Source: a virus
Virus record (IMG/VR): IMGVR_UViG_3300017941_000198
Length of the DNA: 38,836 nt
Strand: one strand, 5' to 3'
The notes beneath the pieces are model-generated. The model was given only the letters and a program-made list of their open reading frames with translations, did not search any database and was not told where the DNA came from. The position numbers and the translations under genes were made by a program. Positions 12,286 to 38,836 of this stretch are shown here, one piece after another. Every line of letters starts with the position of its first letter. Position 1 is the first letter of the stretch.

Positions 12286-13365
12286 TTAAGCTCCAGCTCC
12301 AGGTTGCGCCCATTGACCGCCCCAACCAAACGAAAACGCAAAGTAACTTATCATGTAAACAACAAAAATATCCAGCAACGCCAAAACAAACACAAGCTTC
12401 CACCTGCCCTTTAACCCAGCTATTCCTACGCCAGCAAAGATTGACAAGGGCAAGCTAACGTAGTGAAGCCATCGGTCAGCCCAGAACGGCAACATAATTA
12501 AGTTGCCAAGTAAACCCCAAAGCACCAACTTCTCAAAATCACTTTTGCCCCGCTTAAACAAGAAAGGAATCCCCAGCATTGAAGCACCCATATAATAAGG
12601 AATGAAGCCTACTGGATCAGTCCAGAAAAGATGCTCCTGCGGATTCTCAGTTAAGCCGTAGCCTCCCCACTTCTGAACTGCACCGCCAATATATAACACT
12701 GATATAACCAGTACAGGAAGCACAGCTAAAGTAGCAGCAACAATAGTTTTTCGCCAAGCCTTATCCCTCAACTTATACAGGGCTAAACCATACACGTTGC
12801 TTAAAGCCGCTATCCCATGACTATACACCGTGACCAAAGCGTACCCGACAAACCTTACTTTCTTAGCACCCAACAATGCAGCCACAATCAAAGGGTACAA
12901 CAGCAAATCAAGACTTTCAGGACGCACCTGCAACGCACCATCAAAGAAACTCCAACTTGCAAACAAAACCATCCCCGTAAACACAGCCGCTTTAGGCGAA
13001 CCAAAGCGATAGACAAGCCACATAGTAGCCGCTAAAGTACAAGGCAAAAACAACACTTGCAAAACACGAGCAAATAAATAAGCCTGGCCAAACCAAACCG
13101 AAGGAACCAACAAAAACTCAAATAAGCTAACATAGAAACCATAAGGAAACTTTATGTCAGCTAAATTATAGTTTACAGCACCAGAAATGTTACCTTTAGC
13201 CAACAGTTGAGCTATTGAAAGGTGATAAAAAAAATCAGCGCCGACCGGATAAGTTGTGGAGAGAACAACCGCTAAAGTAGATGCAAATGCTACAGCAATA
13301 ATTAGGATGCAGAGAAACCAAAAAGGCTTAGTTACCTGAAGTTTCCGCATTTTTACGCCACTCAT
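12286..13365 (-). CDS. GT-C-fold (PMT/ArnT/AglB-like) membrane glycosyltransferase
   Basis: About 9-10 TM helices; external loop YPVGADFFYH after TM1; loops RPESLD and DRWLHY. Confidence 0.65.
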   Translation of the reverse strand: MSGVKMRKLQVTKPFWFLCILIIAVAFASTLAVVLSTTYPVGADFFYHLSIAQLLAKGNISGAVNYNLADIKFPYGFYVSLFEFLLVPSVWFGQAYLFARVLQVLFLPCTLAATMWLVYRFGSPKAAVFTGMVLFASWSFFDGALQVRPESLDLLLYPLIVAALLGAKKVRFVGYALVTVYSHGIAALSNVYGLALYKLRDKAWRKTIVAATLAVLPVLVISVLYIGGAVQKWGGYGLTENPQEHLFWTDPVGFIPYYMGASMLGIPFLFKRGKSDFEKLVLWGLLGNLIMLPFWADRWLHYVSLPLSIFAGVGIAGLKGRWKLVFVLALLDIFVVYMISYFAFSFGWGGQWAQPGAGA

Positions 13366-21470: not shown

Positions 21471-21471
21471 A

Positions 21472-21927: not shown

Positions 21928-22051
21928 TTTTCTTCCTTCTTGAGTTGTGAATTGAATTTCTCCATTTGAGGGTCATAGTTGCAAGCCCAACAAAGTTTTC
22001 CTTCTTCATTGTCTTTAACTACACATTTCTTTTTTGGATTTCTAAAACATT

Positions 22052-22822
22052 TCATGTCTTCTCTGTCTCCGAAATGAATACCGTAATTTCTGGGTCAATG
22101 CCAAAGTTTACGATCTGATTATGCTTGCGAACCTTATGTCTAAAGGCTTTAATCTGTTCAGCAGTCCAAAAAATAGGTAGAATATGATCTCCGATCTGAC
22201 CGTCATAATAGCAGTCGCACACTTTAACATGCCAAACTTTGCAGAGATCCAATTTAAGCAAGCATTCTTCATAACTGACAAGTCGATAATTCGCCTGCAT
22301 GAAAAGCATAATATTCTTTCGCTTGTATCCAGCTTTAATGAGCATATCAATAGCTTTCTTAATTTTCTGCTGTTCTCTGTAGGATCCATCCCAAGCTAAT
22401 CGGATTTGGCTTTTCTTGTGATAAAGGTTGACGTTGTTGAATCCGACTTTTGTAAAATGGTTTTGGAAAAGAGCATCTGCTATTTCTTGAGTCATAAAAC
22501 GGTAATCAGCACCACAGACAAGTTCATAATAAACCGTTTTTCCGTTTACTTTTATTGAACCTAACTGTTTGATCAAGTTTAATGCTTGAGGTTTGCAGAG
22601 CAAATTCATATCAAAAATCAATACGTCATTCTTTACGATTTCAGGGATTGGGAAGAGTCTGATTTCTGTTCCTTCATGGCAGTTTGGGCAGTTCCAAACG
22701 CAACCTTCGCTTAATCGGATTGCTTGTTTCTCATATTTCACTCGGTTGTAAGGACCACGACTATAGGGCTTTTTGAGTTGACATTCTGAACCGACTAATC
22801 TCTGCTGAATTGTCTGCGTCAT
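22052..22822 (-). CDS. Radical SAM protein (virus-type, no B12 domain)
   Basis: RLSEGCVWNCPNC (CxxxCxxC); FDMNLL, GADYR and IRLAWD segments. Confidence 0.8.
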   Translation of the reverse strand: MTQTIQQRLVGSECQLKKPYSRGPYNRVKYEKQAIRLSEGCVWNCPNCHEGTEIRLFPIPEIVKNDVLIFDMNLLCKPQALNLIKQLGSIKVNGKTVYYELVCGADYRFMTQEIADALFQNHFTKVGFNNVNLYHKKSQIRLAWDGSYREQQKIKKAIDMLIKAGYKRKNIMLFMQANYRLVSYEECLLKLDLCKVWHVKVCDCYYDGQIGDHILPIFWTAEQIKAFRHKVRKHNQIVNFGIDPEITVFISETEKT

Positions 22823-23325
22823 TTTTTGCTCTGCTCTCCCGACAAAATGCAGTCCGTTTTATTAATGAAAAGATTAGAGACAAAATTATCCAAAACCAAA
22901 AACTTCTCAGGGTGCCAAGAGTCACTATAACGTATTGTTGTAACTACGCCGATTTCAATTAAGTCTCTAACAATCTTTTCCTTTTGGTTTCCCGATGATT
23001 TCATGCGAGGTTCAGCATGAAGCATTTTCATCCAAGCACCAATAGTAGTACAAGAAACCTCTTGTTTAAACTCAGCTTTCAAGCGTGATTGAACCTTCTC
23101 ATAACTATACCCTTCTCGGTAAAGAACTGCAGCATATTGAACAAGTGATATTGGATGCTTACCTCTATAGTATCCATCATTACTAAATGATGTCCCGCAT
23201 GTTTTACAGCGATACCTTTGAACTATCCCTTTAGAAACATAATGCTTTCCAGATTTTACAATCTGGTCACTCTTGCAACGCGGACAATATTTTTTCTGCT
23301 CGTTTTTCGTCTCCAATACTAACAC
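22819..23325 (-). CDS. IS1/IS6-like Zn-ribbon plus HTH protein without a DDE domain
   Basis: CPRCKS...KSG...QRYRCKTCG, then an HTH (YREGYSYEKV...SCTTIGAW); likely start TTG 23316. Confidence 0.7.
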   Translation of the reverse strand: MLVLETKNEQKKYCPRCKSDQIVKSGKHYVSKGIVQRYRCKTCGTSFSNDGYYRGKHPISLVQYAAVLYREGYSYEKVQSRLKAEFKQEVSCTTIGAWMKMLHAEPRMKSSGNQKEKIVRDLIEIGVVTTIRYSDSWHPEKFLVLDNFVSNLFINKTDCILSGEQSKK

Positions 23326-23962
23326 TCCTTAAATGTTTAGAACCACATTTATCACAAATGCAGTAAGGGCTTGAATCGCTAGGAATATAGCCACCACCAT
23401 AACCACCGTACAATTTTTGAGGCTGTAAATGAACATCGCTAACAGCTTTTATTTTAGCATAAATTATAAGTTGCTCAGACTGAGGCAATTTTGATAAAAA
23501 TATTGCATTCATTACACCTAAACTTTTTCCGATTTCTTCTTTAAGTTTAGGATGCAAATTTTTGTATATTTGGATTCTTCCATCAACGTATTGTTTGCTT
23601 TTGCCAAGTTTCTTAGCGATAGTTTCAGGGTCATATTTCATTGTGGCAAATAATTCTCCCTCACGAACAGGGTTCATATTTAACCGTTGAATGTTCTCAG
23701 TAAGCGAGAGAATAACGGCATCAGAAGGCGTACACTGCTTCATTATAACTGGAATCTGATCCCAGCCTAAACCTTTTGCAGCGCATAAACGGTGATTTCC
23801 ACAGATAACTTCCCATTCTTGTTTTTCATTCAAATATACTACAATCGGTTGGAGAAGTCCATGTTGTTTCATGCTCTCTTTTAGGTCATGTATAGTTTGA
23901 CCGTCTATAGGTCTAATCATTGTTCTTGAATATTGAATTACTCTTATAGCTAATGTTTCCAT
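23267..23962 (-). CDS. ParB/Sulfiredoxin-domain protein with HTH and a C-terminal Cys motif
   Basis: LKESMKQHGLLQPIVV...VICGNHRLCAAKGLG...SLTENIQRLNM. Confidence 0.9.
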   Translation of the reverse strand: METLAIRVIQYSRTMIRPIDGQTIHDLKESMKQHGLLQPIVVYLNEKQEWEVICGNHRLCAAKGLGWDQIPVIMKQCTPSDAVILSLTENIQRLNMNPVREGELFATMKYDPETIAKKLGKSKQYVDGRIQIYKNLHPKLKEEIGKSLGVMNAIFLSKLPQSEQLIIYAKIKAVSDVHLQPQKLYGGYGGGYIPSDSSPYCICDKCGSKHLRSVSIGDEKRAEKILSALQE

Positions 23963-24120
23963 TTATTCAACCTTCTTGTTGTTTAATTCTGACGGCAAGA
24001 AAGGGTCTAACTTCCATTGCCCACCAGTTTTCCATTCACCTTTAGACCAAACTGGAAACTCGTAACCTGCCAAATATTCTACAGCAGCCCAGAGTAGCAG
24101 CCTATAGATTTTTAACCGAT

Positions 24121-25017
24121 TCATTTTGAAACCTCGAATAGTGATGTTTTATTTGCCGTAGATGAAGGTGACAGTTTACGAGCAATTACAATATCTTGCC
24201 CATTAAGACAACTTTTTCTTCCACTCCAAAAACCATAGTAAATTGGCTCTGTCACAGTTAACTTGTGATTCTTGTAGAGGTCACGAATAAGTTGTTCATC
24301 ATAAGCAACCGCGCTTTCTGGAGTGATAGAGTCAACAGTAAATACGCCATCACCGATTTTATATTTGAAATCAAATGCGTTCTGTTTACTTATTTCTGTT
24401 TCTTTGTTTAATAAGAAAAATGTGACCAAAACTTTTCCATTAGGTTTTGTTACTCGAACAATTTCTGAGAGGTATCTTTCTATTTCTTTTAGTAGCATGT
24501 GAGTAAATACAGATGTGAGAAAAACGAAGTCAAAATGATTATCGGGGTATGGAAAGTTGAAGTTGGTAGCAGCATCTTTTCCTTTGGGATTAAAATTTGA
24601 GTTTTGAATATCCACAAATCTAAAGTGAAAGTTCGGAAACTCAGGTGCGATGTTCTTCCTTGCCCAATTTACCTGTTCAGCGTCAACATCGAAGCCTTCA
24701 TAGATACCTTCTTCATTCAGATATTGTGTTAAAGCAACAGCTATCCTGCCAACACCACAACCTACATCAAGAACTTTATCATTGTGTTTTAACTCGCCAA
24801 GTTCAATAAAACATTTAAGGAAATCTTTTCCGACAGATTTAAAATCAGAAATACTTGTACTGCCAACAAGTCTTCTTAGTTTCATGGGGGGTACAAGTTT
24901 GTCTCGTTGGTTAAGCAATCTTTCTTTTAAATCTACCCCCATATAAAAAATATAAAAAATTTCGTTTCTTAATTTTCTTAATAGAACTTTCATTTTATCA
25001 ATCATTAGCTCGCTCAC
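24121..25017 (-). CDS. Class I SAM-dependent methyltransferase
   Basis: VLDVGCGVGR; FDFVFLTSVFTH. Confidence 0.9.
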   Translation of the reverse strand: MSELMIDKMKVLLRKLRNEIFYIFYMGVDLKERLLNQRDKLVPPMKLRRLVGSTSISDFKSVGKDFLKCFIELGELKHNDKVLDVGCGVGRIAVALTQYLNEEGIYEGFDVDAEQVNWARKNIAPEFPNFHFRFVDIQNSNFNPKGKDAATNFNFPYPDNHFDFVFLTSVFTHMLLKEIERYLSEIVRVTKPNGKVLVTFFLLNKETEISKQNAFDFKYKIGDGVFTVDSITPESAVAYDEQLIRDLYKNHKLTVTEPIYYGFWSGRKSCLNGQDIVIARKLSPSSTANKTSLFEVSK

Positions 25018-25898
25018 TCCATTAAGTTTTTAAGAAACACAGGCAACTCTCCGTATTTATCGTTGCCATAAGGTATGAGATTTTTTTGGTTATCATTCAT
25101 TATTTTATTTTGGGCATCTGATAGACTCATGTGCCAATCATTCTTAACCCTATAAATCGTGTAATCCAACAGACTAGGAAAGCGTGGATCTTTTGCAATA
25201 AAATAGTCTGCCAAGAACATCCGCATAAGCATCCGTTTAGGATTCTTAATATTACAATGGAAAATGTAGGGTTCACGCCATCGCAGTATTCTGTACCACG
25301 GTGGAAAACGATGCCCCCAAACACTATCGCCACAGACCTGCTCCCAATAATTGTTTTTCAATGCCCATTTAAGTTCTGGACTCCAAGTGAAAAGTCTTGC
25401 TTCGTAAATTCCGAATGGACAGTTCTTTGGCTGATGCTTCAAGTCACCTTCAAAATTCACTCTAGGAAGGTTAATTACAAAATACTCTTTCTTGTCCAAC
25501 CTGCCAAGCCTATCTTTCCATTCCATCAGGGCTTCAGGACTCTTGGCAACGAAATCGCCATCCCACTTAAACACCCACTTATAATTAGCATTGACTAAGC
25601 CTATGTGTAACGATAGAGCAAAAGCATGAACATTTTCACAGTAGAATTGTATATGCTTGATTTTATCACATTTTTTTGCTAACGATTCAATTATGTTGGT
25701 AGTATTATCTTGGATTGAGCTGTCAACAATTATGATTTCGTCTGCTACAGGCTCTATGGATAAAATGCAGGGTTTAATCCATTGTTCCTCATCTTTAACT
25801 GCAATGATAAAGGTTATTCCTTCTTTGTGGAAATTTGGTTTCTTCACTAATCCAAGTTTAGGCAACACAGCCAAACAAGAGCGCAAGGTAGCCTTCAT
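25014..25898 (-). CDS. GT2 (GT-A) glycosyltransferase
   Basis: ITFIIAVKDEE, IIIVDSS, WVFKWDGD. Confidence 0.88.
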   Translation of the reverse strand: MKATLRSCLAVLPKLGLVKKPNFHKEGITFIIAVKDEEQWIKPCILSIEPVADEIIIVDSSIQDNTTNIIESLAKKCDKIKHIQFYCENVHAFALSLHIGLVNANYKWVFKWDGDFVAKSPEALMEWKDRLGRLDKKEYFVINLPRVNFEGDLKHQPKNCPFGIYEARLFTWSPELKWALKNNYWEQVCGDSVWGHRFPPWYRILRWREPYIFHCNIKNPKRMLMRMFLADYFIAKDPRFPSLLDYTIYRVKNDWHMSLSDAQNKIMNDNQKNLIPYGNDKYGELPVFLKNLME

Positions 25899-25901
25899 TT
25901 T

Positions 25902-26612
25902 TTAATTCTCCCGAACTATAAACCAATCTGGATAAGAGGTATAGAGGCTAAGTTTATTGCTTTCAACAAATTCTGTTACTGCCTTTACGACTCCACCATG
26001 GATGAAAGTGTAGTCATGCCCTCCAAGAACTCCGCCTACTCGTATATGTGGATACCAAGATTCTATGTCTTCTTTAACGTTTTTGTATTCATGGTTCGCA
26101 TCTATGTAAACGAAGTCTAATGGTTCCTGTATTTTTTTGCTCGCATTCACACTAGGTTCAATAAGCCACACCACAGGCTTATCCTTCAAAACAGAAAAAG
26201 CAGTATCTTTAGCGTTAACATGGGCGCTGTTGATTAATTCGTTCTCAAAATAACGAGTATATGGATCAATAGCGTATAGTTGTTTCAAGTTGAGCAGTTT
26301 AAACATGCTCTCAGCGTTTGCTCCAGCACTAACTCCGATTTCTGCTCCAACAAGATTTTTCAGATGACAATGGGCGATATATTTTATCATAGGTCTTGGC
26401 AAATCGTTTATGGGAGGGTGAAAATACATTTCTTTAAAACAAGAGTAAACCTTTGGAGTAAGAACATGCATCAAGATTAACACCAGCTTTAATCTTAGAT
26501 TATATGTTGCTGACGCAATCTTCAATCTTTTACCTCCATGCGACTCATTAAAGATTGTATCAATGCTAATCGTTGCTTGTATTCTGGATGACGGAGGTTG
26601 CACATCGAGCAA
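25902..26612 (-). CDS. Methyltransf_24-type SAM methyltransferase
   Basis: GAEIGV, FVYIDANHEY, GGVLGGHDY. Confidence 0.88.
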   Translation of the reverse strand: MLDVQPPSSRIQATISIDTIFNESHGGKRLKIASATYNLRLKLVLILMHVLTPKVYSCFKEMYFHPPINDLPRPMIKYIAHCHLKNLVGAEIGVSAGANAESMFKLLNLKQLYAIDPYTRYFENELINSAHVNAKDTAFSVLKDKPVVWLIEPSVNASKKIQEPLDFVYIDANHEYKNVKEDIESWYPHIRVGGVLGGHDYTFIHGGVVKAVTEFVESNKLSLYTSYPDWFIVREN

Positions 26613-27601
26613 ATATCATTTTCTTGGAGGTTAAGTATCCTCATCTTCCAAAAATCCTTAATTGATTTTCCTTCTTTCATGTAATCTTTAATGTCGCCAT
26701 ACTTCAAACTTCTTTCAGCACCCCAACAACAACACTGAAGCAAATCGCCATGAACATTGATTGAGCCGTTACCCCACAAGACGCAAGGCCACCCCATAGG
26801 TGGGGCAGTATGTTTAAACTGGTAAGCCGTTATATTGATTTTTGATATTGCTTCTTCCTGCATCTCCAAAGTTAAATTGCCCAAAACATGTTTGCTGGGA
26901 ATTGTATAATCATTAATAACCAAAGGACTGAAGACGCGTTTGAAATCTGGAAACGTAGCACCCACTAGTTCCCACCAATCATTCATGTAAGCAAAGTTAT
27001 CCTTAGTGATAGTATAATGAACCTCAATCTTTTGATTACTACATCGGTGCTCATCTACGTAATGTAGAGTCTTTATTACTTGTTCAAATTTATCGCCACG
27101 ATGAACTTTCTTGTATATTTCTCGGTTAGATGCTGAAAGTGTAAAACAAGCGCTATCCAAGTTCTTGTCACAAAATAGAAAAGCTCTCTCAGGTTTAGAA
27201 CCACAGCTAAAAGTGTTAGTAGGCAGCCAACCCACAAGTTTATCGTGTGACTTCAAAATCTCTGGCAAGCGCAATTCGTTCTGTGGGTCGCCGTCAAGGA
27301 AATATCGGCAATCCTGGCAATTACTATGAAGCCGCGGCATATTCTCAGCCATGTCTTTTTGAATGTACTCTATTGCTTCCATGCTCATTTCAGCGTAAAA
27401 ATCCTTCTTGCAAAGCTTATTCCACGTGGGGTAACAATAGGAACAGTTTATACCGCTGTATTTAGGATTAGGACCACAGTAATTACTAGTTTCAATCTGA
27501 ACGGTAGTTGGATATTTTAGCCAATGGTATTTGCCATCGATAACATCAATCACTTCGTTGCGTACCATATTGTAATAGGTTCTTGGTCTATGCAACTTCA
27601 T
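26522..27601 (-). CDS. Radical SAM protein with a SPASM/twitch-like C-terminus and atypical CX10CX2C motif
   Basis: QIETSNYCGPNPKYSGINCSYC; CVLW...HGDLLQCC...ICSMC. Confidence 0.8.
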   Translation of the reverse strand: MKLHRPRTYYNMVRNEVIDVIDGKYHWLKYPTTVQIETSNYCGPNPKYSGINCSYCYPTWNKLCKKDFYAEMSMEAIEYIQKDMAENMPRLHSNCQDCRYFLDGDPQNELRLPEILKSHDKLVGWLPTNTFSCGSKPERAFLFCDKNLDSACFTLSASNREIYKKVHRGDKFEQVIKTLHYVDEHRCSNQKIEVHYTITKDNFAYMNDWWELVGATFPDFKRVFSPLVINDYTIPSKHVLGNLTLEMQEEAISKINITAYQFKHTAPPMGWPCVLWGNGSINVHGDLLQCCCWGAERSLKYGDIKDYMKEGKSIKDFWKMRILNLQENDICSMCNLRHPEYKQRLALIQSLMSRMEVKD

Positions 27602-27786
27602 AGGTTGCTACCACCACGCCAGTTTCTTATACTGACCTCGAGTATTGGATGTAAATTACGTGTATGTACATCTCCAAGTTCAAAGAAGATTTCATCCTCA
27701 TCCACAGACAGGAAAAAGCCTCGTCTTGATTGAACATGTATATTCGCATGTTTCAGCTTCTCAAAAATTTTCTTTTTAATATTCAC
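27598..27786 (-). CDS. Hypothetical protein, 62 aa
   Basis: Tightly coupled within the cassette. Confidence 0.6.
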   Translation of the reverse strand: MNIKKKIFEKLKHANIHVQSRRGFFLSVDEDEIFFELGDVHTRNLHPILEVSIRNWRGGSNL

Positions 27787-27787
27787 T

Positions 27788-28366
27788 TTAATGATTAACT
27801 CCTTTGATTATCCAAACTAATGTGAAAGTTACTCTTAGCAACAAATGTTGAAATGCAACTCTGTAATCTCGGAAGGGAATAAAAAAGCGTAACGGGTCAT
27901 CATCAAAGTTTCTTTTATATTTCACGTACATGCGGCAGAACTCCCATGTGACAGGAACAATTCGTTTTGTTTTATAGAAAGCATGAGGGTGCGGAATATG
28001 CTTAGCAAAATCTGGCGATAACACTTTCAGTTTTAAACCTGCTTGTTGAGCTCTAAAAGCAAAGTCGCCATCTTCAAAGCAATACTTAAGTTTTTCATCA
28101 CAACCGTGTAATTGCCAAAAATCTTCAAGATAAACTGCGAAGACACGACTACACAGATGTTTGCCTTCATGGGTTAAAATGAATTCTCCATGTTTCAATT
28201 GAAGAATTACATCCCAGATTTTAGGTGAAATAACAAGATCGTCATTGAACTGAACCATTAAGCCACAACAACCGAACTCTTTAGCAGCAACATTTCTTGC
28301 TTTGCCATAACCTAATGTACGGCAAAAAATTAGTTTGTGCGGTACTGGGCAGTTCAGTGTTTCCAA
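27788..28366 (-). CDS. Short GT2-like glycosyltransferase (N-terminally reduced)
   Basis: YGKARN, VQFNDD, GCDEKLKYCFEDGDFAFR. Confidence 0.75.
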   Translation of the reverse strand: METLNCPVPHKLIFCRTLGYGKARNVAAKEFGCCGLMVQFNDDLVISPKIWDVILQLKHGEFILTHEGKHLCSRVFAVYLEDFWQLHGCDEKLKYCFEDGDFAFRAQQAGLKLKVLSPDFAKHIPHPHAFYKTKRIVPVTWEFCRMYVKYKRNFDDDPLRFFIPFRDYRVAFQHLLLRVTFTLVWIIKGVNH

Positions 28367-28417
28367 CGTTTTAATTTTTTCTTTCGGCTTTAAGGTTATG
28401 ATCGCTATATCGAGCAG

Positions 28418-29764
28418 TTACGGCACCCTCCGTCTAGTCTTTTTGTACAAACTTCTCAAGGTTGATGCCATCGGAAAGTTAGAATGCCTTAGCCAATACT
28501 TCAATTGGTTCTGATCTTTATTGTAGCCATCAACTGCCTTTTGGATATAATCGTAATCAACACCTTTTATTTTGTGTTCTCCAATATAACGTGAAGCATA
28601 CTCATCAATAATCAAATCATTTCGGCAACAGTAATCATGCAAGTCGCTTCCTGGGTAGGGGCTAAAAGTTGCTACACTAAGATGTTCAGGTTTCATTTCT
28701 CGAACCATACTCATAGTCAAGTCTATGTCTTCATGGGTTTCAGTTGGTAGACCCATTAAAATGTTGGCAAATATTTTTATGCCATTTTCATGTAGGATTT
28801 TTGCTGCCTTCAGATTGGTTTCTCTTGTTGTTCCTTTCCGCAGAAACTTCAAGATTTTGTCACTTCCAGATTCAAAGCCGACAATAGCCATTTCCAAACC
28901 CATATTTTTCAATGCCTTGATTATTTCTGGATGCTGAACTGGATAGTTAGCCCTTGACTGAATAATGAAAGGTTTCGGTTCTTCTATTGTATGCAAATAA
29001 TAGTCAATGAATTGTTTAACCCAATCTATATTCTGGAGAAAGCCATCATCATGAATCATCCAACTTTTGAAGCCAGCGCGTTCATGCAACCAAACAAGTT
29101 CGCTAATAACATTTTGAACGCTACGTCTTCTTTCTTCGTTTCCAAACATTGTTCTAGAGCAAGGGAAACAGAAAAAACAGTTTTGCAAACATGACCTACT
29201 GGTTAATATTGTCACGAATGGTTGCTTTCCAGAAAATTTCAATCCCCAAGGATACTCATTCATCCATAATGTTCTGTCAATAAAGGGGATTGAGTCTAAA
29301 TCTACTGGTTCACCTACCAACACTCTTTGAGAGTTTACCCCAACTTTGATGCAGTTTAATAAGTGAGCAAGAGCAACTTCCCCTTCCTTCTGAATAATAA
29401 AGTTTACACGGTTGTCATCACTGAAATCTGAAAGCTTCACAGTGGGATGAACGCCACCAGCAACAATAGTTGCTGAAGGATTAACTTTTTTCAGATGACT
29501 CAAACATTCAAGATAGACAGAGTAATCAATTGTGTTAACACTGAAACATACAACATCATAGACAGCAATTTTTGCTTCATAATCAACCCAACCGCTAAGC
29601 CTTCGAGTGTCAATTAAATCAAGTTGAACACCTTGTTTTTTCGCATAAGCAATCAGCAACGCTACTCCATGATTAATCCAGCGGGTAGTCCAATCATAAC
29701 TTATTGATGCTTGAAAGATTCTGCTACTTGGCAACACAATACACGCTTTCAAGTTATACACCAA
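28418..29764 (-). CDS. Cobalamin-binding radical SAM enzyme (class B methyltransferase-like)
   Basis: IVAGGVHPT B12-binding region; TSRSCLQNCFFC; GFESGSDKIL. Confidence 0.9.
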   Translation of the reverse strand: MVYNLKACIVLPSSRIFQASISYDWTTRWINHGVALLIAYAKKQGVQLDLIDTRRLSGWVDYEAKIAVYDVVCFSVNTIDYSVYLECLSHLKKVNPSATIVAGGVHPTVKLSDFSDDNRVNFIIQKEGEVALAHLLNCIKVGVNSQRVLVGEPVDLDSIPFIDRTLWMNEYPWGLKFSGKQPFVTILTSRSCLQNCFFCFPCSRTMFGNEERRRSVQNVISELVWLHERAGFKSWMIHDDGFLQNIDWVKQFIDYYLHTIEEPKPFIIQSRANYPVQHPEIIKALKNMGLEMAIVGFESGSDKILKFLRKGTTRETNLKAAKILHENGIKIFANILMGLPTETHEDIDLTMSMVREMKPEHLSVATFSPYPGSDLHDYCCRNDLIIDEYASRYIGEHKIKGVDYDYIQKAVDGYNKDQNQLKYWLRHSNFPMASTLRSLYKKTRRRVP

Positions 29765-29780
29765 TCTTTAACTTTTTGCT

Positions 29781-30776
29781 TCAATCAAACTCACCTATTA
29801 ATTCTGGATTATCAAAACATTTCTCGCAATAATAATTGCCGTCAACAGGGTTGAACATCACTTTTGTAACTGTCATCCCACAGTCTGAACATTGATAATG
29901 TTTCTGTCTACTTGGACCTTTAAGTAAACCCCATGCGTAATAAAATCTGATAAGAGGATGAATGTAAGTTACTGTAGCATCTCTTGTTTTAAGAGCTACA
30001 AAGAGTCCGCTGAAAGGCGCAAGAAACAGCCGGTAAATAACACTCCAAGTGTTAACTGGAGATTTCATCTGGATCTTACTCATTGCTCGCCAAATATCTT
30101 TAATCTGAGTGCCATACCAACGTTGCCTTTCCAATTCATCAAATAAACCTTTCCGCAAGTGAATGCTTTGAACATTATAATCTACCTTCCAATTGTAGCC
30201 ATACTTTTTTAATGTCCAAGCTAATACTGTATCGACACCAGCATTAACATTCATAACTGGAAACCCGCCAATTTTTCGCATAACTTCTGTGCGGTAAATT
30301 GTGTTATCTAAAGTCTTACCTAAAGTAAAAGCGTTAGCTTCTCGACTGCGAAGCCATGGGCTTAATTGTTCACCGCGATACTTCTTAGCCACATACTTGA
30401 AAAGCGTAGTCATGCCTTTTGGCTGAGAAACAAAACGCATTCCACTACTAGCAGCCAAATCAGAATCAAAGAACGGCATAGCAACTTTGCTCCACCAATC
30501 CTTAGCTAAAATAACATCTTGCTCGAAACTACAAAAAACCTCTGTTTCAACATATTTTAAAGCTGTGTTAGCTCCATCACTAATTCCAGAGCCCTTGTTT
30601 AAGTAAACATCCCAACCTTTAGCTGAAGCTATATCTCTCGTAGCATCTGCGCTTCGATCATCAACAATAAATTTGTCGTGAACAACTTTTTTAGGGATGA
30701 CTTGGTTGATTCTATCTAAAACTGTACCAAGAGTCCTCTCACCATTTCGAGTCCACATACAAATATCTATTTGCAC
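29781..30776 (-). CDS. GT2 glycosyltransferase with a C-terminal Zn finger
   Basis: IDICMWTRNGERTL, FIVDDRSADAT, SFEQD; CSDC...CEKC; GTG 30776 preferred as start. Confidence 0.85.
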   Translation of the reverse strand: MQIDICMWTRNGERTLGTVLDRINQVIPKKVVHDKFIVDDRSADATRDIASAKGWDVYLNKGSGISDGANTALKYVETEVFCSFEQDVILAKDWWSKVAMPFFDSDLAASSGMRFVSQPKGMTTLFKYVAKKYRGEQLSPWLRSREANAFTLGKTLDNTIYRTEVMRKIGGFPVMNVNAGVDTVLAWTLKKYGYNWKVDYNVQSIHLRKGLFDELERQRWYGTQIKDIWRAMSKIQMKSPVNTWSVIYRLFLAPFSGLFVALKTRDATVTYIHPLIRFYYAWGLLKGPSRQKHYQCSDCGMTVTKVMFNPVDGNYYCEKCFDNPELIGEFD

Positions 30777-30780
30777 TTTT

Positions 30781-31836
30781 TCACAACCACCCTTTAAGGT
30801 GTAGGTACATGATTCCGGTAACACACACCGCTACATAAGAAACGAGCAAAACAAGAAGCCACCAATATTCACGCTTCATCATCTTCCCATTAAATCTTAA
30901 ACCAATTCTACTTGCTAAATTGTATAAGTGAAATCCCAGTGACTTCAGAAACATCGGTACGCCATCCTTAAAACTCCGTTGCAAACTAAACAGTAAAAAT
31001 ATTCTTCCGCGCAGGGTTAACGGAACATAAAATCGTTTAATCTCTACTTTTTTGAAACCATTATTTCTTTTAAACACATCAAGACTTGGATGATTGCCCA
31101 TACGAGCATAAACAAGCCAATGCAAATTCCTATCAGAACATATTTTTACAGCCTTCGCAATCAAAGCATTATTCGGCATCACATCACGAAAAGAAACTAA
31201 ACTCAATATTTGACCAAAGACACCTGTATCTTCTCCACATTGAAGTTCAACAAAACCAACCAACTTATGCTTGAGAAATACATCTCCATCCGACTTTTCT
31301 TCTACCCAAATATACGCGCCTATAATGATGTTGTCAGTTGTAAACACATGTTGCTGTACACTTTCTAATGAAACCCCATAATGGTTAAATCGTCTAAATT
31401 GCCGGATAGGAGTCTCATTATAAATCTTCCAAATACCCTCTGCTAATTTAACTCCTTCTTTCACATCACTAAACGGCGATGAACGCGCATTCGGATCAAT
31501 AATTTTAACTTCAAGCCCTTTTTCTCTCGCCTTCATAAGCCGCGTCTTTGTTTCTTTCGGCAGTTGCTTCAACCAATCTTCATAACTATCAAACTCTGCG
31601 GCAGCAACATTATCACGGCAAACTTTAGCTTTAAACGGAACATTATAAAACTCGTTACACCAAGTTCTCTCGCAGAAATTTAACACATCTATCTCTTTTG
31701 ATTGAAAACTTTTAGGGCTAGGGCAGAAATCCTGTAAGTATTCTGTTGGGCTCTTTCCTATTGTGGCAAATAATTTTCTGTTTAAAACCAATGATTGTGT
31801 TTGGCACTCACGTTCAGCCTCAAGAGACAAACCCAT
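30781..31836 (-). CDS. FemAB/GNAT-fold acyltransferase-like protein with a C-terminal TM helix
   Basis: KTRLMKAREKGLEVK, IYNETPIRQ, NNALIAKAV, LDVFKRNNGF; ATG 31836 overlaps upstream TGA. Confidence 0.75.
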   Translation of the reverse strand: MGLSLEAERECQTQSLVLNRKLFATIGKSPTEYLQDFCPSPKSFQSKEIDVLNFCERTWCNEFYNVPFKAKVCRDNVAAAEFDSYEDWLKQLPKETKTRLMKAREKGLEVKIIDPNARSSPFSDVKEGVKLAEGIWKIYNETPIRQFRRFNHYGVSLESVQQHVFTTDNIIIGAYIWVEEKSDGDVFLKHKLVGFVELQCGEDTGVFGQILSLVSFRDVMPNNALIAKAVKICSDRNLHWLVYARMGNHPSLDVFKRNNGFKKVEIKRFYVPLTLRGRIFLLFSLQRSFKDGVPMFLKSLGFHLYNLASRIGLRFNGKMMKREYWWLLVLLVSYVAVCVTGIMYLHLKGWL

Positions 31837-32228
31837 CAAGTTGCAACCTCCTTGAACTGCCAAACTTTAGAATCATGCCGCTGAGGCAATGTCTCATAAT
31901 GTTTCTTGCAAAATCTATGCTCTTTTTTACTTAGAAGATTTATTCCAGCAACGGCAGCTTTAAGTTTGCAGGAATTAATGGAACATTTACCAAGTGAAGT
32001 TAATTTGGTTTGGTCATAGTTAACTAATGTTGTTTGAGGATTGCCACCTTGATCTAAATGATGTTGCACAAACAAAAGTCGGATAGCTTCTCGAAGTAAA
32101 TCACCAATTTCTAAATCATCCTGGATAGCTAATTTTTTAAGATTTCTTATAATTCCTTCGTCTTCAATGTTCTTAGCCTTGAATGTAGCATACTTGAGCT
32201 TACTATTGATGTCTGGTAATTTCGTCAT
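31836..32228 (-). CDS. RHH-like regulator fused to a Zn finger
   Basis: LKKLAIQDDLEIGDLLREAIRLL; CSINSC...FCKKH. Confidence 0.65.
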   Translation of the reverse strand: MTKLPDINSKLKYATFKAKNIEDEGIIRNLKKLAIQDDLEIGDLLREAIRLLFVQHHLDQGGNPQTTLVNYDQTKLTSLGKCSINSCKLKAAVAGINLLSKKEHRFCKKHYETLPQRHDSKVWQFKEVAT

Positions 32229-32267
32229 TTTTTTGGCTTTTCCTTTTCTTTTGAAACATAAATTATT

Positions 32268-32365
32268 AAGATAAGTTACTAACTTATCTTTTCTAATTAC
32301 TTTCCTTATCAGTAGGATTCCTTTCCTACTGCGAATTTTTTTAAATTACTAACTTATCTTACTAA
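32268..32365. repeat. AT-rich intergenic cluster of inverted and direct repeats (operator or origin candidate)
   Basis: AAGATAAGTT-act-AACTTATCTT (32268-32290); TTACTAACTTATCTT at 32276 and 32346; CAGTAGGA-ttcctt-TCCTACTG (32310-32331). Confidence 0.75.
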
Positions 32366-32366
32366 T

Positions 32367-32555
32367 TTATGACTGTGAACTTCTTTTTTGTTTCAGGATT
32401 TGTTTTCGGTGTCTCTGGTAGTAGAGTTGGTTTTGCTGTTGTTTCTTAGCTTCATGTTGGTCTATTTGCCGGAATCTTTCAGAGATGGCTTGAACTTCTT
32501 TTTTAAAGACAAAAACTAATGTCAATTTTTTGGTCTCCTTTCTTTGTCTGGGCAT
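32367..32555 (-). CDS. Small basic helical protein
   Basis: QQQNQLYYQRHRKQILKQKR. Confidence 0.55.
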   Translation of the reverse strand: MPRQRKETKKLTLVFVFKKEVQAISERFRQIDQHEAKKQQQNQLYYQRHRKQILKQKRSSQS

Positions 32556-32610
32556 TCTTTACGGATTTCGCAGTGTAGTGTTGGGCAGTGTAGGCATGTG
32601 TTTCTGTTTT

Positions 32611-32919
32611 TCATTGTTTCACCATTTTTCTTTGTCTCTCGTTTTTGTGCTGTATGTATTGAGCGGTTTTGGGGCAGGCTTTTAGCCGTAAACGTTTCCC
32701 GTGATCTGGACAAAGTAATTGACCTGACTTGTTGGGTACGCCGTCTTTCTTGAGGACCCAGTGACCCATCATGCCACAGTAGAGTTTGCCTTTTTGGTAA
32801 GGTGTAAAAGTCACTGTTTTATAGCCACTCCTTTTTTTTGCTACGTTTAAAATTTGCCTGGTTGATTTGAAACGCTGGGTTCTTTGACCATTTATGAAAC
32901 ATGCTTTGTAGTCCTCCAT
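32611..32919 (-). CDS. Basic Cys/His protein (start uncertain)
   Basis: YCGMMGH...LCPDHG. Confidence 0.5.
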   Translation of the reverse strand: MEDYKACFINGQRTQRFKSTRQILNVAKKRSGYKTVTFTPYQKGKLYCGMMGHWVLKKDGVPNKSGQLLCPDHGKRLRLKACPKTAQYIQHKNERQRKMVKQ

Positions 32920-33167
32920 TTCTGGGGATTCTCGCCAAACGGTTCAGCCCAGCCCTTCTTACGTAGCTCGCGCAAACGATTATCAGTCAAAAAACTGTAG
33001 CCAAAATAATCCAGCTCCTTCGCAATAATTTGTTGAACTGACAAGCCTTCAGGATAATCTTTGAGAATTTGCATAATCAAAGCTCGGTGCCTAGCATTTC
33101 GAGCTTCTATGATTTCATAAGGCGAAAGTTCCGCAATAGGATTTTTCTCTAAAGTTTGCGTAGTCAT
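32892..33167 (-). CDS. Winged-helix DNA-binding protein
   Basis: LIMQILKDYPEGLSVQQI...NRLRELRKKGWAE. Confidence 0.7.
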   Translation of the reverse strand: MTTQTLEKNPIAELSPYEIIEARNARHRALIMQILKDYPEGLSVQQIIAKELDYFGYSFLTDNRLRELRKKGWAEPFGENPQKWRTTKHVS

Positions 33168-33295
33168 TTCGGGTCAGTCTCCAAATCCACATGTTCGTTG
33201 CTACAATCTTCGCAAGTCTGTTTACGCTCGCAAACTCGCAGTGGCAAACCCTTGCGATCAGGACAGAAACTTGGCAGAACAATTTTAATCGGCGT
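33164..33295 (-). CDS. 43-aa Cys-rich ORF apparently starting at ACG
   Basis: GGAGG 10 nt upstream; in-frame TGA three codons before ACG; stop overlaps the next ATG. Confidence 0.4.
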   Translation of the reverse strand, partial: TPIKIVLPSFCPDRKGLPLRVCERKQTCEDCSNEHVDLETDPK

Positions 33296-33687
33296 TTCTT
33301 TTCAGCCTCCTTAACTTAATCTGCTCCATGCAGCAAACCGCACATTGGCTCAAGCTTACACTCGCCACATGTTGGAACACGATTACGCTCTTGGCATTTA
33401 CGTATCGCCTCATAGCGTTCCTGAAGGCAAGTCATGCAGGACATGCTAGTTTTAAGCCTCCATGTCAACTAAGTGGGCTGTTCCGTCCGGGCAGTAAACC
33501 TTGCCGCCTTTTTTAACACGCGCAAAACGAACTTTGCAGTAACGCATGACACAGCAACCAGTACAATCACGCGATAACATTTTTCTTTTTAGTCCTCCGT
33601 CTTCCTTTGCCTTCACCGAAAAAGTAAAGTGCCCAGCCGATGGCGAATAGCAAGATGGCTGGAGCCAACATTAAGAAGGCTAAAGCT

Positions 33688-37579: not shown

Positions 37580-38755
37580 CTATTTCTTATCCTTGTTTTT
37601 GTCTTCACCTTTTAAGTGCTCAGGGTCATTAACATGGATAAGTTCCTTAGCTTTCAATAAATCCCTGACTTCCCGAAACAGAGGAAGCTCTTTCATAAGT
37701 TCTTTGACATTATCAATATCATCCTTTGTGAGTCCAACCATAGAACCGTCAACCCTGTTCGAATCATTCAAGCATAAAAGTGGGTAAACCTTTTTCATAG
37801 CCTCAATTAACCGAAACTCCATCTTATCTTGGCTGCCATATTCATGTTCAATGCTGGAAGTGTGACCCATCAAAGCCTCCTTAACCTTACTATAAATTTC
37901 TGCGTCACAAAGGGCATCCTCGAAAGCGTCTCGCAGACTAGTTGGCTTAAATCCCTCAACAGAACCGAAACCAGCTTTAATGATTAATTCACGCACAACC
38001 TGACTGACCCCCTGATTATCAAGTGGACCCTCACGACCAACAAGCAAAGGCTCACCAACCTTGCCTTTCTTAATCATTACTTTACCTTTTTTAACGATTA
38101 CGTAAGCCTTCAAACAATCGCATACGTCGGGAGTAGAAACGCCACGCCAAACCTCGCCTGTCTTGCTCCGGCTAAACTCAAAATAGACCCAGGGCTCAAC
38201 TGGATAATCGCCAACCCTTAAGGCAGCAACATCTACTGGTGCAGGTCCATTCTGGTAAATAACTGCGACGATAAACTTGTCTCTGGCAGAGTCAGCGTGA
38301 GCAAACAAGCTTCGGACATCCTCGTTGCATGGCGAAAACTTGCGGGTTTTCCTTGCTTTCGGGTACTTCAGCCTTCGCAAATCCAAGCTTAATCGGTGGC
38401 TGTTGTTGCTGAAGAATCCTTGAATCCTGCCGATGTGACCGCTTATAGACAGGTTCTTGCTGACTAAGGTTTTGATGTAGGCTTTCGTTTTGCGCTCGTA
38501 CCTTTCGTTATCGGTTACGTCGAAACTTGTCAAATCACTTTTTCGATTGGCAATCACTGCGTCTGGGTCTTCCCCTAAAAAGAGGAAGTAGTATGGCAAA
38601 ACACGCCTGTAAGTTCTCTGAGTAGATTTATTGAGCCCTTCAATTGCCCGTTTATAGCAATCGTATTCTTCTATGGGTTTACCGAATTTTTCAAGGAACA
38701 GTTTGCGTCCTGTGCCGTCCTTAAGAGCTCTTGGGATAGTTTCTTTTCTTCGCAT
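37580..38755 (-). CDS. int: Tyrosine integrase (full length, non-canonical active site)
   Basis: RDKFIVAVIYQNGPAPVD, RSKTG, PTSLR, MGH...HEY; N-terminal core-binding helices. Confidence 0.85.
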   Translation of the reverse strand: MRRKETIPRALKDGTGRKLFLEKFGKPIEEYDCYKRAIEGLNKSTQRTYRRVLPYYFLFLGEDPDAVIANRKSDLTSFDVTDNERYERKTKAYIKTLVSKNLSISGHIGRIQGFFSNNSHRLSLDLRRLKYPKARKTRKFSPCNEDVRSLFAHADSARDKFIVAVIYQNGPAPVDVAALRVGDYPVEPWVYFEFSRSKTGEVWRGVSTPDVCDCLKAYVIVKKGKVMIKKGKVGEPLLVGREGPLDNQGVSQVVRELIIKAGFGSVEGFKPTSLRDAFEDALCDAEIYSKVKEALMGHTSSIEHEYGSQDKMEFRLIEAMKKVYPLLCLNDSNRVDGSMVGLTKDDIDNVKELMKELPLFREVRDLLKAKELIHVNDPEHLKGEDKNKDKK

Positions 38756-38836
38756 GGCGATTTCCCCAGAGGCGAATTAGCGTACCGCAGAGATATAGCG
38801 TTTGCCATATTGAAGCGGTGAACTGCATTTTGTACA

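What the first reader, a model, noticed from the sequence alone, without database searches (positions are those of the whole stretch)
24121..31836. Viral glycan build-and-tailor cassette: 3 GT2, 2 SAM methyltransferases, B12 radical SAM, SPASM radical SAM, FemAB/GNAT
Seen: nine tightly coupled co-oriented genes (7.7 kb) inside the viral arm, downstream of an RHH-Zn regulator. Established: these families co-occur in cell-surface glycan loci; archaeal viruses often carry GTs, but cobalamin-dependent radical SAM and FemAB-like enzymes are unusual viral cargo. Inference: the virus makes its own methylated/acylated glycan. An alternative is DNA base hypermodification.
Basis: partly seen in the sequence, partly recalled or inferred. 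Interest (0 to 1): 0.85.

Follow-up and report, generated by a model that had tools for sequence, protein, structure and literature searches.

The report
Radical-SAM sugar-tailoring operon on archaeal mobile element
A 50-kb mobile element integrated in peat Bathyarchaeia carries a real, conserved operon of glycosyltransferases, two radical-SAM enzymes, methyltransferases and a FemX-like transferase that most likely decorates surface sugars, but the element is not shown to be a virus and the sugar's target is unknown.

Summary
The cassette is real. Ten tightly packed minus-strand genes (24121-32228) encode an RHH-like regulator, a membrane-anchored FemX/MprF-like tandem GNAT, a GT2 with a zinc ribbon, a cobalamin radical-SAM enzyme, a compact 208-aa GT-A transferase, a radical-SAM enzyme with a SPASM/twitch-type cysteine motif, a Methyltransf_24 enzyme, a second GT2 and a class I methyltransferase.

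It lies inside a ~50.1-kb element integrated at a 12-bp att site in Candidatus Bathyarchaeia. An empty site exists, and contigs from many peat samples cross the cassette without a break. It is therefore neither a chimera nor a copied host locus.

The core GT2 / B12-rSAM / mini-GT / rSAM recurs in related elements. The B12 enzymes of these elements form one clade. That clade's nearest relatives sit in a Wzx polysaccharide locus, beside a polysaccharide pyruvyl transferase, and between the portal and capsid genes of a tailed virus.

Sugar tailoring is therefore the best reading (about 0.6). "Builds its own glycan" overstates it: there are no nucleotide-sugar genes, priming transferase or flippase. 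No viral hallmark gene was found, so "viral" stays unproven. DNA hypermodification and RiPP readings have little support.

I rate it a new variant of a known kind, of moderate interest.

The parts
31836..32228 (-). 130-aa putative regulator: weak ribbon-helix-helix N-terminus plus a C-terminal Cys/His cluster. First gene of the co-directional run.
   Evidence: Antitox_RHH E=0.0011, 19.5 bits, below the cut-off. Cys82, 87 and 107.
30781..31836 (-). 351-aa FemX/MprF-like tandem-GNAT acyl- or aminoacyl-transferase with one C-terminal transmembrane helix (residues 327-345).
   Evidence: 437 relatives at E<=0.001. Members hit Acetyltransf_1 (12 members), Acetyltransf_6 (10) and FemAB (7). AF2 pLDDT 90.3. 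Foldseek top hits are Sbb17/Sba18, MprF C-domain and FemX, probability 1.0, TM 0.44-0.57. TM helix. Adjacency to a GT2 is kept in a 67%-identical relative.
29781..30824 (-). 347-aa GT2 glycosyltransferase with a C-terminal CxxC-x17-CxxC zinc ribbon. Core gene of the cassette.
   Evidence: Pfam GT2 34.5 bits. Weak AglJ, MftF and GpgS hits. Invariant DD.S.D and E.D motifs. Model matches PcManGT, GpgS and cellulose/hyaluronan synthase GT-A domains. Orthologues at 38-66% identity in L018, L027, L036 and L024.
28418..29764 (-). 448-aa cobalamin-dependent (class B) radical-SAM enzyme. Core gene.
   Evidence: B12-binding 40.5 bits plus Radical_SAM 66.3 bits. CX3CX2C at 192-199. Best curated family is HpnJ, 137 bits against a 578-bit cut-off. 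Closest solved structure is QCMT 9CCB, E=7e-12. Clade analysis.
27788..28417 (-). ~208-aa compact GT-A ('mini-GT'), the most conserved gene of the cassette. It probably starts at a CTG that abuts the upstream TAA stop.
   Evidence: 18-member family, 68-81% identity in related elements. Invariant NDD, EDGD and HxH; homologues start with M at the CTG position. Atlas neighbours are compact GT2 proteins, mostly viral. Pfam Glyco_transf_7C scores only 18 bits.
27598..27786 (-). 62-aa ORF of unknown function, with no cysteines. Not conserved in related cassettes.
   Evidence: No tblastn match below E=0.38 in related loci. Absent between mini-GT and rSAM in the contig that carries P0169.
26522..27601 (-). 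359-aa radical-SAM enzyme with a non-canonical CX10CX2C cluster motif and a C-terminal SPASM/twitch-type auxiliary-cluster motif. Core gene, found directly or closely after the mini-GT wherever the contig extends that far.
   Evidence: Radical_SAM 27.3 bits. 12-member family, most with PF04055. Invariant C42, C53, C56, C133, C273, G285, C290, C291, C331 and C334. Synteny.
25902..26471 (-). 189-aa Methyltransf_24 SAM-dependent methyltransferase (O-methyltransferase-like). Accessory gene.
   Evidence: PF13578 50.9 bits. Gene called at 189 aa. phrog_2675 E=6e-16. No homologue in related loci.
25014..25898 (-). 294-aa GT2 glycosyltransferase. Accessory gene.
   Evidence: PF00535 36.2 bits. Weak PHROG hits to beta-1,4-GT and GtrB-like families.
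24121..25017 (-). 298-aa class I SAM methyltransferase. Accessory gene.
   Evidence: Methyltransf_11/25 62.6 bits.
23963..24124 (-). 53-aa ORF overlapping the methyltransferase stop by 4 nt. Unknown function, not conserved.
   Evidence: Called. No significant tblastn match.
12286..13365 (-). 359-aa polytopic membrane protein with a GT-C-like (STT3/PMT_2/ArnT-like) fold. Candidate final transferase acting outside the membrane.
   Evidence: Atlas feature scores 0.94-0.97 and structural TM 0.70-0.78 to STT3/PMT_2 clusters. No Pfam hit. Relatives carry PMT_2 genes.
37580..38755 (-). 391-aa tyrosine-recombinase-like integrase next to attR.
   Evidence: Phage_integrase 19.8 bits, weak. Its position is 81 nt from the element's end.
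38825..38836 (.). attR core GCATTTTGTACA. The window ends exactly at it.
   Evidence: The same 12 bp occur at attL (L010), attR (L004) and the empty site (L005).

Best explanation
The cassette is an accessory sugar-tailoring operon. It is carried by a ~50.1-kb integrative element of peat Bathyarchaeia, which may be a temperate virus.

Shown:
- The genes are real, translationally packed and part of the element.
- A four-gene core (GT2 with zinc ribbon, cobalamin radical-SAM, compact GT-A, SPASM/twitch-like radical-SAM) is conserved across related elements.
- The window's copy adds a membrane-anchored FemX/MprF-like transferase, a second GT2 and two SAM methyltransferases.

Inferred:
- The enzymes use host nucleotide sugars and host lipid carriers.
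- The glycosyltransferases add two or three sugars.
- The B12 enzyme alters an unactivated sugar carbon, by C-methylation or an HpnJ-like rearrangement.
- The second radical-SAM enzyme oxidises, epimerises or deoxygenates a sugar.
- The methyltransferases O-methylate.
- The tandem GNAT adds an amino acid or acyl group at the membrane.
- The product is then moved onto surface proteins or lipids by the element's GT-C-like protein or by host machinery.

The likely biological effect is a change of the surface glycan of the lysogen (as in phage seroconversion) or of particle proteins. Which of the two applies is open.
For: The cassette belongs to the element:
- An empty site lies on a 2.35-Mb contig, and 12-bp att repeats flank the insertion.
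- The host flanks are named Candidatus Bathyarchaeia.
- 50,111-nt contigs in independent runs cover 19000-38836 with no joints or differences.
- 24 peat or wetland runs hold the stretch.

Operon: junctions are mostly -4 to +3 nt.

Conserved core: GT2 / B12-rSAM / mini-GT / rSAM is found in L018, L027, L036 and the contigs that carry P0168 and P0169. The mini-GT and rSAM are neighbours in L026-L035.

Not a recent host capture: element-borne B12-rSAMs form one clade (SH-aLRT 99) inside a 23-row clade (SH-aLRT 99).

Glycan context of that wider clade:
- P0017 lies in a locus with GT1, GT2 and GT4 genes, epimerases, DegT, NTP-transferases and a Wzx flippase.
- P0016 lies with a GT2, a polysaccharide pyruvyl transferase and a methyltransferase.
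- P0022 lies with GT2 and RGP genes between the portal and capsid genes of a tailed virus.

Other support:
- GT-C-like protein in the element and PMT_2 genes beside the cassette in relatives.
- Fold of the tandem GNAT and its membrane anchor.
Against: - No enzyme has an assigned substrate. All curated equivalog scores are far below their cut-offs.
- The cassette has no nucleotide-sugar synthesis gene, priming transferase, flippase or polymerase.
- Only one cassette protein has a membrane helix.
- The GT-C call rests on language-model and predicted-structure neighbours only.
- N-glycosylation sequons are only weakly enriched in two putative structural proteins and not in the others.
- FemX-like enzymes, rSAM enzymes, GTs and methyltransferases also co-occur in aminoglycoside, nucleoside and RiPP pathways.
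Confidence: 0.6

Rival explanations
1. Membrane-lipid head-group remodelling. A GT2 puts a sugar on an archaeal lipid. The B12-rSAM contracts or methylates it, as proposed for HpnI/HpnK/HpnJ in hopanoids and for calditol synthase Cds. The membrane-anchored tandem GNAT aminoacylates a lipid head group, as MprF does. The target would be the membrane rather than a protein glycan.
For: - HpnJ is the best-scoring curated family for the B12-rSAM (137 bits; the next best scores 100).
- GT2 / B12-rSAM adjacency mirrors HpnI/HpnJ, and ring contraction is proposed for HpnJ and Cds (PMC13459092).
- The MprF C-domain is among the top fold matches of the GNAT, which has a membrane helix.
- LPG_synthase_TM genes lie within 0.6-7 kb of the att site and of two chromosomal mini-GT homologues. 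These genomes carry 6-10 copies of that family.
Against: - The HpnJ score is far below its 578-bit cut-off.
- The closest non-element homologues sit in polysaccharide loci and in a virus structural module, not lipid loci.
- FemX and Sbb17 match the GNAT as well as MprF does.
- The LPG_synthase_TM association was noticed after the fact.
Confidence: 0.15
2. A small-molecule or peptide natural-product pathway: an aminoglycoside- or nucleoside-like compound, or a glycosylated RiPP or cofactor of the mycofactocin type. The element would make it for competition or signalling.
For: - The best fold match of the GNAT is the aa-tRNA-dependent peptide synthase Sbb17/Sba18 with bound streptothrisamine.
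- Weak MftF and SunS hits for the GT2s, and an AprD4 hit for the B12 enzyme.
- An rSAM with a SPASM/twitch-type motif plus GT2 plus methyltransferases resembles mycofactocin-type gene sets (my own knowledge).
Against: - There is no scaffold-forming enzyme, RRE/MftB-like protein, peptidase or exporter.
- The only small ORFs (53 and 62 aa) are not conserved in related cassettes, and the 62-aa ORF has no cysteine.
- Homologue contexts are polysaccharide-type.
Confidence: 0.1
3. DNA base hypermodification of the element's genome (glycosylated, methylated or aminoacylated bases) to evade host restriction.
For: - A ParB_N-domain protein lies directly downstream.
- Methyltransf_24 hits a PHROG labelled DNA methyltransferase.
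- rSAM and GNAT-type enzymes occur in known phage DNA hypermodification pathways (my own knowledge).
Against: - No hydroxymethylase, thymidylate-synthase homologue, DNA kinase, TGT/DpdA or nucleotide-metabolism gene was found in the window or the left end. The only hint is a MazG hit at E=0.004.
- There are no PADLOC modification-system hits beyond generic methyltransferase domains.
- The homologous B12-rSAM in a tailed virus sits between the portal and capsid genes with GT2 and RGP genes.
Confidence: 0.07

Closest known systems
Temperate-phage O-antigen conversion modules (GtrA/GtrB/GtrC and related acetyl- or glucosyl-transferases)
   Same: It is a glycan-modifying operon carried by an integrated element that depends on host precursors. 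A GT2 is combined with a GT-C-like membrane transferase. One GT2 weakly hits the GtrB-like PHROG. Relatives also carry beta-helix proteins of the tailspike type.
   Different: No GtrA flippase is present. The GT2 proteins lack the GtrB transmembrane helices. Two radical-SAM enzymes, two methyltransferases and a FemX-like enzyme have no counterpart in Gtr modules. The host is an archaeon.
Virus-encoded virion glycosylation (glycosyltransferases beside structural genes in mycobacteriophages, Freeman et al. 2023, cited in PMC12801897; the single GT of the Bathyarchaeia provirus Huangdivirus, PMC10848311)
   Same: Glycosyltransferases are cargo of a virus or provirus. The host class is the same as for Huangdivirus. 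A homologous B12-rSAM lies with GT2 and RGP genes between the portal and capsid genes of a tailed virus.
   Different: Those systems have one or a few GTs and no radical-SAM or FemX-like enzymes. Here the virion nature of the element is unproven.
HpnI/HpnK/HpnJ (hopanoid cyclitol ether) and calditol synthase Cds
   Same: A GT2 next to a B12-type radical-SAM enzyme acts on a lipid-bound sugar. HpnJ is the best-scoring curated family (PMC13459092).
   Different: The score is a quarter of the HpnJ cut-off. There is no deacetylase (HpnK) and no hopanoid or GDGT genes. The phylogenetic neighbours lie in polysaccharide loci.
Cellular surface-polysaccharide loci with class B radical-SAM enzymes (for example L019)
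   Same: The B12-rSAM belongs to the same clade (46% identity) and has GT2 and methyltransferase neighbours.
   Different: The cellular locus has the full set (nucleotide-sugar enzymes, Wzx, GT1/GT4). The element keeps only tailoring enzymes and adds the mini-GT / rSAM pair, which is found in only 5 of 301 genomes sampled from G001's class.
Aminoglycoside and nucleoside antibiotic tailoring enzymes (GenK/GenD1, AprD4, BtrN; aa-tRNA-dependent transferases such as Sbb17)
   Same: The chemistry toolbox acting on sugars is the same: B12-rSAM, twitch-type rSAM, GT, methyltransferase and FemX-like transferase.
   Different: There are no scaffold (cyclitol or nucleoside) synthesis genes and no resistance or export genes. 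All sequence matches are distant.

Membership tests
Glycosyltransferase family 2 (PF00535, GT-A fold) | Score above the Pfam gathering cut-off and an acidic DxD-type motif | tested here: met
   The 294-aa protein scores 36.2 bits and the 347-aa protein 34.5 bits, against a 23.3-bit cut-off. The 347-aa family has invariant D56/D60 and E101/D103. Its GT-A fold matches PcManGT and GpgS.
Glycosyltransferase family 2 (third member, 208-aa mini-GT) | Pfam GT2 or Glyco_transf_7C above the cut-off, with GT-A motifs | tested here: inconclusive
   No PF00535 hit, and Glyco_transf_7C scores 18.1 bits against a 23-bit cut-off. The family has invariant NDD, EDGD and HxH motifs. Atlas neighbours are GT2 clusters at 0.95-0.97, with structural TM 0.66-0.80.
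Class B (cobalamin-dependent) radical-SAM enzymes | N-terminal B12-binding domain plus a radical-SAM core with CX3CX2C | tested here: met
   PF02310 scores 40.5 bits (cut-off 32.1) and PF04055 scores 66.3 bits (cut-off 29.5). C192-x3-C196-x2-C199 is present.
HpnJ (TIGR03471 equivalog) | Score above the curated 577.6-bit cut-off | tested here: not met
   137.5 bits. It is the best-scoring family but this protein is not a member.
SPASM/twitch radical-SAM enzymes | Radical-SAM core plus a C-terminal CX9-15GX4C motif and further cysteines that bind auxiliary clusters; a PF13186 hit | tested here: inconclusive
   C273-X11-G285-X4-C290, C291 and C331xxC334 are invariant in 11 homologues. The radical-SAM core scores 27.3 bits, below the 29.5 cut-off, with a CX10CX2C motif. 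There is no PF13186 hit. The full seven-cysteine SPASM pattern is incomplete, so it is more twitch-like.
FemAB / FemX / MprF-type tandem GNAT (aa-tRNA-dependent transferases) | Two GNAT lobes, a family HMM hit, and use of aminoacyl-tRNA as donor | tested here: inconclusive
   The window protein has no Pfam hit. 7-12 of 51 relatives hit FemAB, Acetyltransf_6 or Acetyltransf_1. The fold matches Sbb17, MprF and FemX with probability 1.0 and TM 0.44-0.57. The donor (aa-tRNA or acyl-CoA) cannot be tested here.
GtrABC-type seroconversion module | GtrA flippase, membrane-bound GtrB GT2 and a GT-C GtrC together on a prophage | tested here: not met
   No GtrA is present. No GT2 has a transmembrane helix. 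The GT-C-like gene lies about 11 kb from the cassette. There is functional resemblance only.
Spindle-shaped archaeal viruses (Fuselloviridae-like, 'Huangdiviridae') | VP1/VP3-type major capsid protein homologue, plus VP2 or an ATV-like ATPase | tested here: inconclusive
   Two small two-helix hydrophobic proteins exist at 4171-4948. No Pfam or PHROG capsid hit is better than E=0.01. The AAA+ protein hits only a DnaA-like PHROG. There is no tblastn match in the phage records.

The most novel reading that the evidence does not exclude
A temperate archaeal virus uses radical chemistry to make an unusual sugar that the host cannot make itself. A cobalamin rSAM and a twitch-type rSAM would produce a C-methylated or ring-contracted sugar, which is then aminoacylated. 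The virus displays this sugar through its own GT-C transferase on the lysogen's surface or on its own particle. This would be an archaeal counterpart of phage seroconversion with a chemistry not known from any virus.
Probability: 0.2. Interest if true: 0.8.

Novelty: new variant of a known kind. Interest (0 to 1): 0.6.

Why it matters
Bathyarchaeia are abundant and uncultured, and very few of their mobile elements are described. Known virus or prophage glycan modules consist of glycosyltransferases and simple acetyl- or methyl-transferases.

This finding shows a conserved radical-SAM-based sugar-tailoring core travelling on a family of archaeal integrative elements. Its B12 enzyme belongs to a clade that also occurs in the structural module of a bona fide tailed virus.

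If the products are surface glycans, mobile elements could diversify archaeal surface chemistry, and hence virus receptors, in peat. The finding also gives four unstudied enzyme families (mini-GT, CX10CX2C rSAM, this B12-rSAM clade and the anchored tandem GNAT) a testable context.

Tried and rejected
- Whole-genome search: no genome is held for the window. The MAG record is not held.
- IMG/VR scans with the B12-rSAM and the mini-GT family found no relatives.
- tblastn of the AAA+ protein and the integrase against the phage records gave no match.
- Pfam and PHROG scans of about 70 further ORFs of the element found no capsid, portal, terminase, conjugation or nucleotide-metabolism genes.
- PADLOC gave only generic methyltransferase-domain hits.
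- PDB sequence searches: no credible match for the 359-aa rSAM (only chance-level hits, best E=0.17), none at all for the GNAT, and only distant class B rSAMs for the B12 enzyme.
- RiPP precursor idea: the 53- and 62-aa ORFs are not conserved.
- Sequon count: weak enrichment in the 133-aa and 429-aa proteins only (uncorrected 0.01-0.04) and none in the 719+, 917 and 1223-aa proteins. Inconclusive.
- The GT-C-like protein against the PMT_2 protein of L018: BLASTP E=0.045, not informative.
- Walking left from the window with the 429-aa protein failed because no exact record exists.
- Sequencing runs: no RNA holder is listed, so nothing can be said on expression. The runs laid are contigs, so depth cannot rank genes.
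- Earlier findings searched by sequence: nothing.
- Literature: no paper in the library pairs B12 radical-SAM enzymes with viral auxiliary genes or virion glycosylation. The library is incomplete.
- The careful tree did not finish, so the quick IQ-TREE tree with SH-aLRT support was used.

Full report
**1. What is there**

The stretch 24121-32228 holds a run of co-directional minus-strand genes. Junctions are mostly -4 to +3 nt; the extremes are -44 and +50.

Pfam, at or above its own cut-offs, gives the following:
- a class I SAM methyltransferase (24121-25017);
- a GT2 (25014-25898);
- a Methyltransf_24 enzyme (25902-26471);
- a B12-binding plus Radical_SAM protein (28418-29764);
- a GT2 with a C-terminal CxxC...CxxC (29781-30824).

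The B12 enzyme has the canonical C192-x3-C196-x2-C199 motif.

- **The 359-aa protein (26522-27601).** It scores 27.3 bits on Radical_SAM, just under the cut-off. Its small family (12 proteins, most with PF04055) has an invariant CX10CX2C. It also has an invariant C-X11-G-X4-C-C and CxxC near the C-terminus. That is the signature half of a SPASM/twitch domain, although PF13186 is not hit.
- **The '192-aa' protein.** It is really about 208 aa. Homologues start with Met exactly where the window has CTG, directly after the TAA stop of the B12 gene, and the upstream 16 residues are conserved. The family has invariant NDD, EDGD and HxH motifs. Its Atlas neighbours are compact GT2 proteins of about 200 aa, mostly from tailed viruses.
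- **The 351-aa protein (30781-31836).** It has no Pfam hit itself but has 437 relatives. Among 51 of them, 12 hit Acetyltransf_1, 10 hit Acetyltransf_6 and 7 hit FemAB. A confident model (pLDDT 90) matches aa-tRNA-dependent peptide synthases Sbb17/Sba18, the MprF synthase domain and FemX. It ends in one transmembrane helix.

The ninth gene is a non-conserved 62-aa ORF.

**2. Where it sits**

- The exact B12 protein occurs on 22 contigs of up to 86 kb.
- Beyond the integrase, the contigs continue into host genes (AsnC, LPG_synthase_TM, TiaS, AlaRS). NCBI names their products Candidatus Bathyarchaeia.
- A 2.35-Mb contig carries the same flanks with nothing between CTP synthase and AsnC. Comparing the empty and occupied sites gives a 12-bp core, GCATTTTGTACA, at both junctions. 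The window ends exactly on it.
- The element is about 50.1 kb. In an 86-kb contig the flanks are about 50.7 kb apart. In three of four runs laid, a 50,111-nt contig represents the element and stops at att.
- The window is the right-hand 38.8 kb of the element.
- Twenty-four peat or wetland runs hold the cassette. In the four runs laid, one contig crosses 19000-38836 with no joints or differences.

The nearest cellular homologues are 46% identical for the B12-rSAM and 53% for the mini-GT.

**3. Is it a virus?**

This is not shown.
- Pfam and PHROG scans of the large ORFs, about 50 small ORFs and the left end (L010) gave an integrase, a second recombinase, ParB_N, a DnaA/Cdc6-like AAA+ protein, Ig-like domains and nothing diagnostic of a virion.
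- There is no relative in the phage records or IMG/VR.
- Two small two-helix hydrophobic proteins are compatible with spindle-virus capsid proteins such as those of the Bathyarchaeia provirus Huangdivirus (PMC10848311). No statistical match was obtained.
- Related elements carry beta-helix proteins, a Cas4-like nuclease and a D5-type primase-helicase. These fit viruses or plasmids.

I put 'virus' at roughly even odds.

**4. Conservation and origin**

- The order GT2 (Zn) / B12-rSAM / mini-GT / rSAM recurs at 38-79% identity in L018, L027, L036 and the contigs that carry P0168 and P0169.
- The mini-GT and the rSAM are neighbours in every contig long enough to show it.
- Relatives insert further enzymes: a 303-aa rSAM with a weak SPASM hit, a 485-aa protein and a second B12-rSAM. 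They place a PMT_2 (GT-C) gene a few genes upstream.
- The FemX-like gene, the second GT2 and both methyltransferases are specific to this version. A 67%-identical FemX-like gene elsewhere is also followed by a GT2.
- A chromosomal triad GT2 / mini-GT / rSAM without the B12 gene lies next to a type IV pilus-like locus in another archaeal MAG.
- The mini-GT family was found in 5 of 301 genomes sampled from the class of G001, a Bathyarchaeota MAG.
- In a quick ML tree, the element-borne B12 enzymes form one clade (SH-aLRT 99) within a 23-row clade (SH-aLRT 99). This indicates long residence on these elements rather than recent capture.

**5. What it does**

The contexts of the other members of that 23-row clade are the strongest functional evidence.
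- P0017 lies in a classical surface-polysaccharide locus, with GT1/GT2/GT4 genes, epimerases, DegT, NTP-transferases, RGP and Wzx.
- P0016 lies with a GT2, a polysaccharide pyruvyl transferase and a methyltransferase.
- P0022 lies with GT2 and RGP genes between the portal and major-capsid genes of a tailed virus.

The element also encodes a GT-C-like membrane protein at 12286-13365. The cassette lacks nucleotide-sugar synthesis, a priming transferase, a flippase and a polymerase, so it can only tailor what the host supplies.

The most likely mechanism is therefore as follows.
- Cytoplasmic or membrane-face addition of sugars by the three GT-A enzymes.
- Radical modification of sugar carbons by the two rSAM enzymes. 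Methylation or an HpnJ-like rearrangement is possible; HpnJ is the best but sub-threshold family.
- O-methylation by the methyltransferases.
- Acyl- or aminoacyl-transfer at the membrane by the anchored tandem GNAT.
- Display on surface proteins or lipids.

Every step after the family assignments is inference.

**6. Rivals**

- **Lipid head-group remodelling.** It has the HpnI/HpnJ and MprF analogies, and a recurrent LPG_synthase_TM neighbour noticed after the fact.
- **Natural product or RiPP.** It fits the enzyme toolbox and the Sbb17 match, but lacks a scaffold enzyme or a conserved precursor.
- **DNA hypermodification.** It has only a neighbouring ParB_N protein and a PHROG label in its favour, and no nucleotide-metabolism genes.

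**7. Novelty**

Glycan genes on prophages and viruses are well known. New here are the radical-SAM core, the FemX-like enzyme and the archaeal host.
- Only one phage among 50,697 records has a distant B12-rSAM.
- None of the core proteins hits a PHROG.

I class it as a new variant of a known kind, with moderate interest.

Noticed in passing
window 28412-28420: The mini-GT appears to start at CTG directly after the TAA stop of the B12 gene, with GGAGGG 7 nt upstream. Homologues have ATG (Met) at this position, and the 16 residues before the first TTG are conserved. This supports near-cognate initiation or termination-reinitiation.
   Followed up: partly
L013/L011 versus L010 (host flanks of the element): In the NCBI MAG contig and a 412-kb JGI contig, the AsnC and CTP-synthase flanks are about 100 kb apart. 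In an 86-kb contig they are about 50.7 kb apart. The difference (50,099 bp) equals one element length, which suggests two tandem copies or an assembly effect.
   Followed up: no
window 38807-38836: In three of the four runs laid, the 50,111-nt element contig stops at the att core, and two different 48-nt contigs continue from it at unequal depth (for example 21.5 and 65.8 against 79.9). The element's end therefore joins two different sequences in the same sample. This fits integrated plus tandem or circular forms.
   Followed up: no
L037:2060-21362: A 58.7-kb contig of a tailed virus (portal, HK97-type capsid, tail tube) carries RGP, GT2, B12-rSAM (44% identical to the window's), RGP and GT2 between the portal and capsid genes. 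It is a candidate virion-glycosylation module with a cobalamin radical-SAM enzyme.
   Followed up: partly
L024:8119-18411: A chromosomal TrmB-type regulator, GT2, mini-GT and rSAM (no B12 gene) lie next to a T2SSE/T2SSF type IV pilus-like locus in an uncultured archaeon MAG. This may link the gene pair to glycosylation of surface filaments.
   Followed up: no
L004:10469-11515; L022:14260-15312; L024:2106-3200: Stand-alone LPG_synthase_TM (MprF flippase-like) genes lie 0.6-7 kb from the att site and from two chromosomal mini-GT homologues. These genomes have 6-10 such genes, so chance is not excluded.
   Followed up: partly
window 16729-17379: A second, short (216-aa) tyrosine recombinase gives clear integrase PHROG hits (E=1.5e-20). 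The 391-aa integrase at the att end only weakly matches Phage_integrase.
   Followed up: no
L010:17492-20239: About 8 kb beyond the left junction, the host contig carries another 479-aa integrase, a MazE-like gene and a 199-aa DNA polymerase B palm/thumb fragment. This may be a second integrated element or its remnant.
   Followed up: no
window 3-7734 and L010:4178-7849: Four large ORFan proteins (719+, 429, 917 and 1223 aa) have no Pfam or PHROG hit. Three of them (719+, 429 and 1223 aa) are 20-27% Ser+Thr; the 917-aa one is 15%. An Ig-like (Big_3_5) protein lies nearby. They are candidate extracellular or particle proteins.
   Followed up: partly
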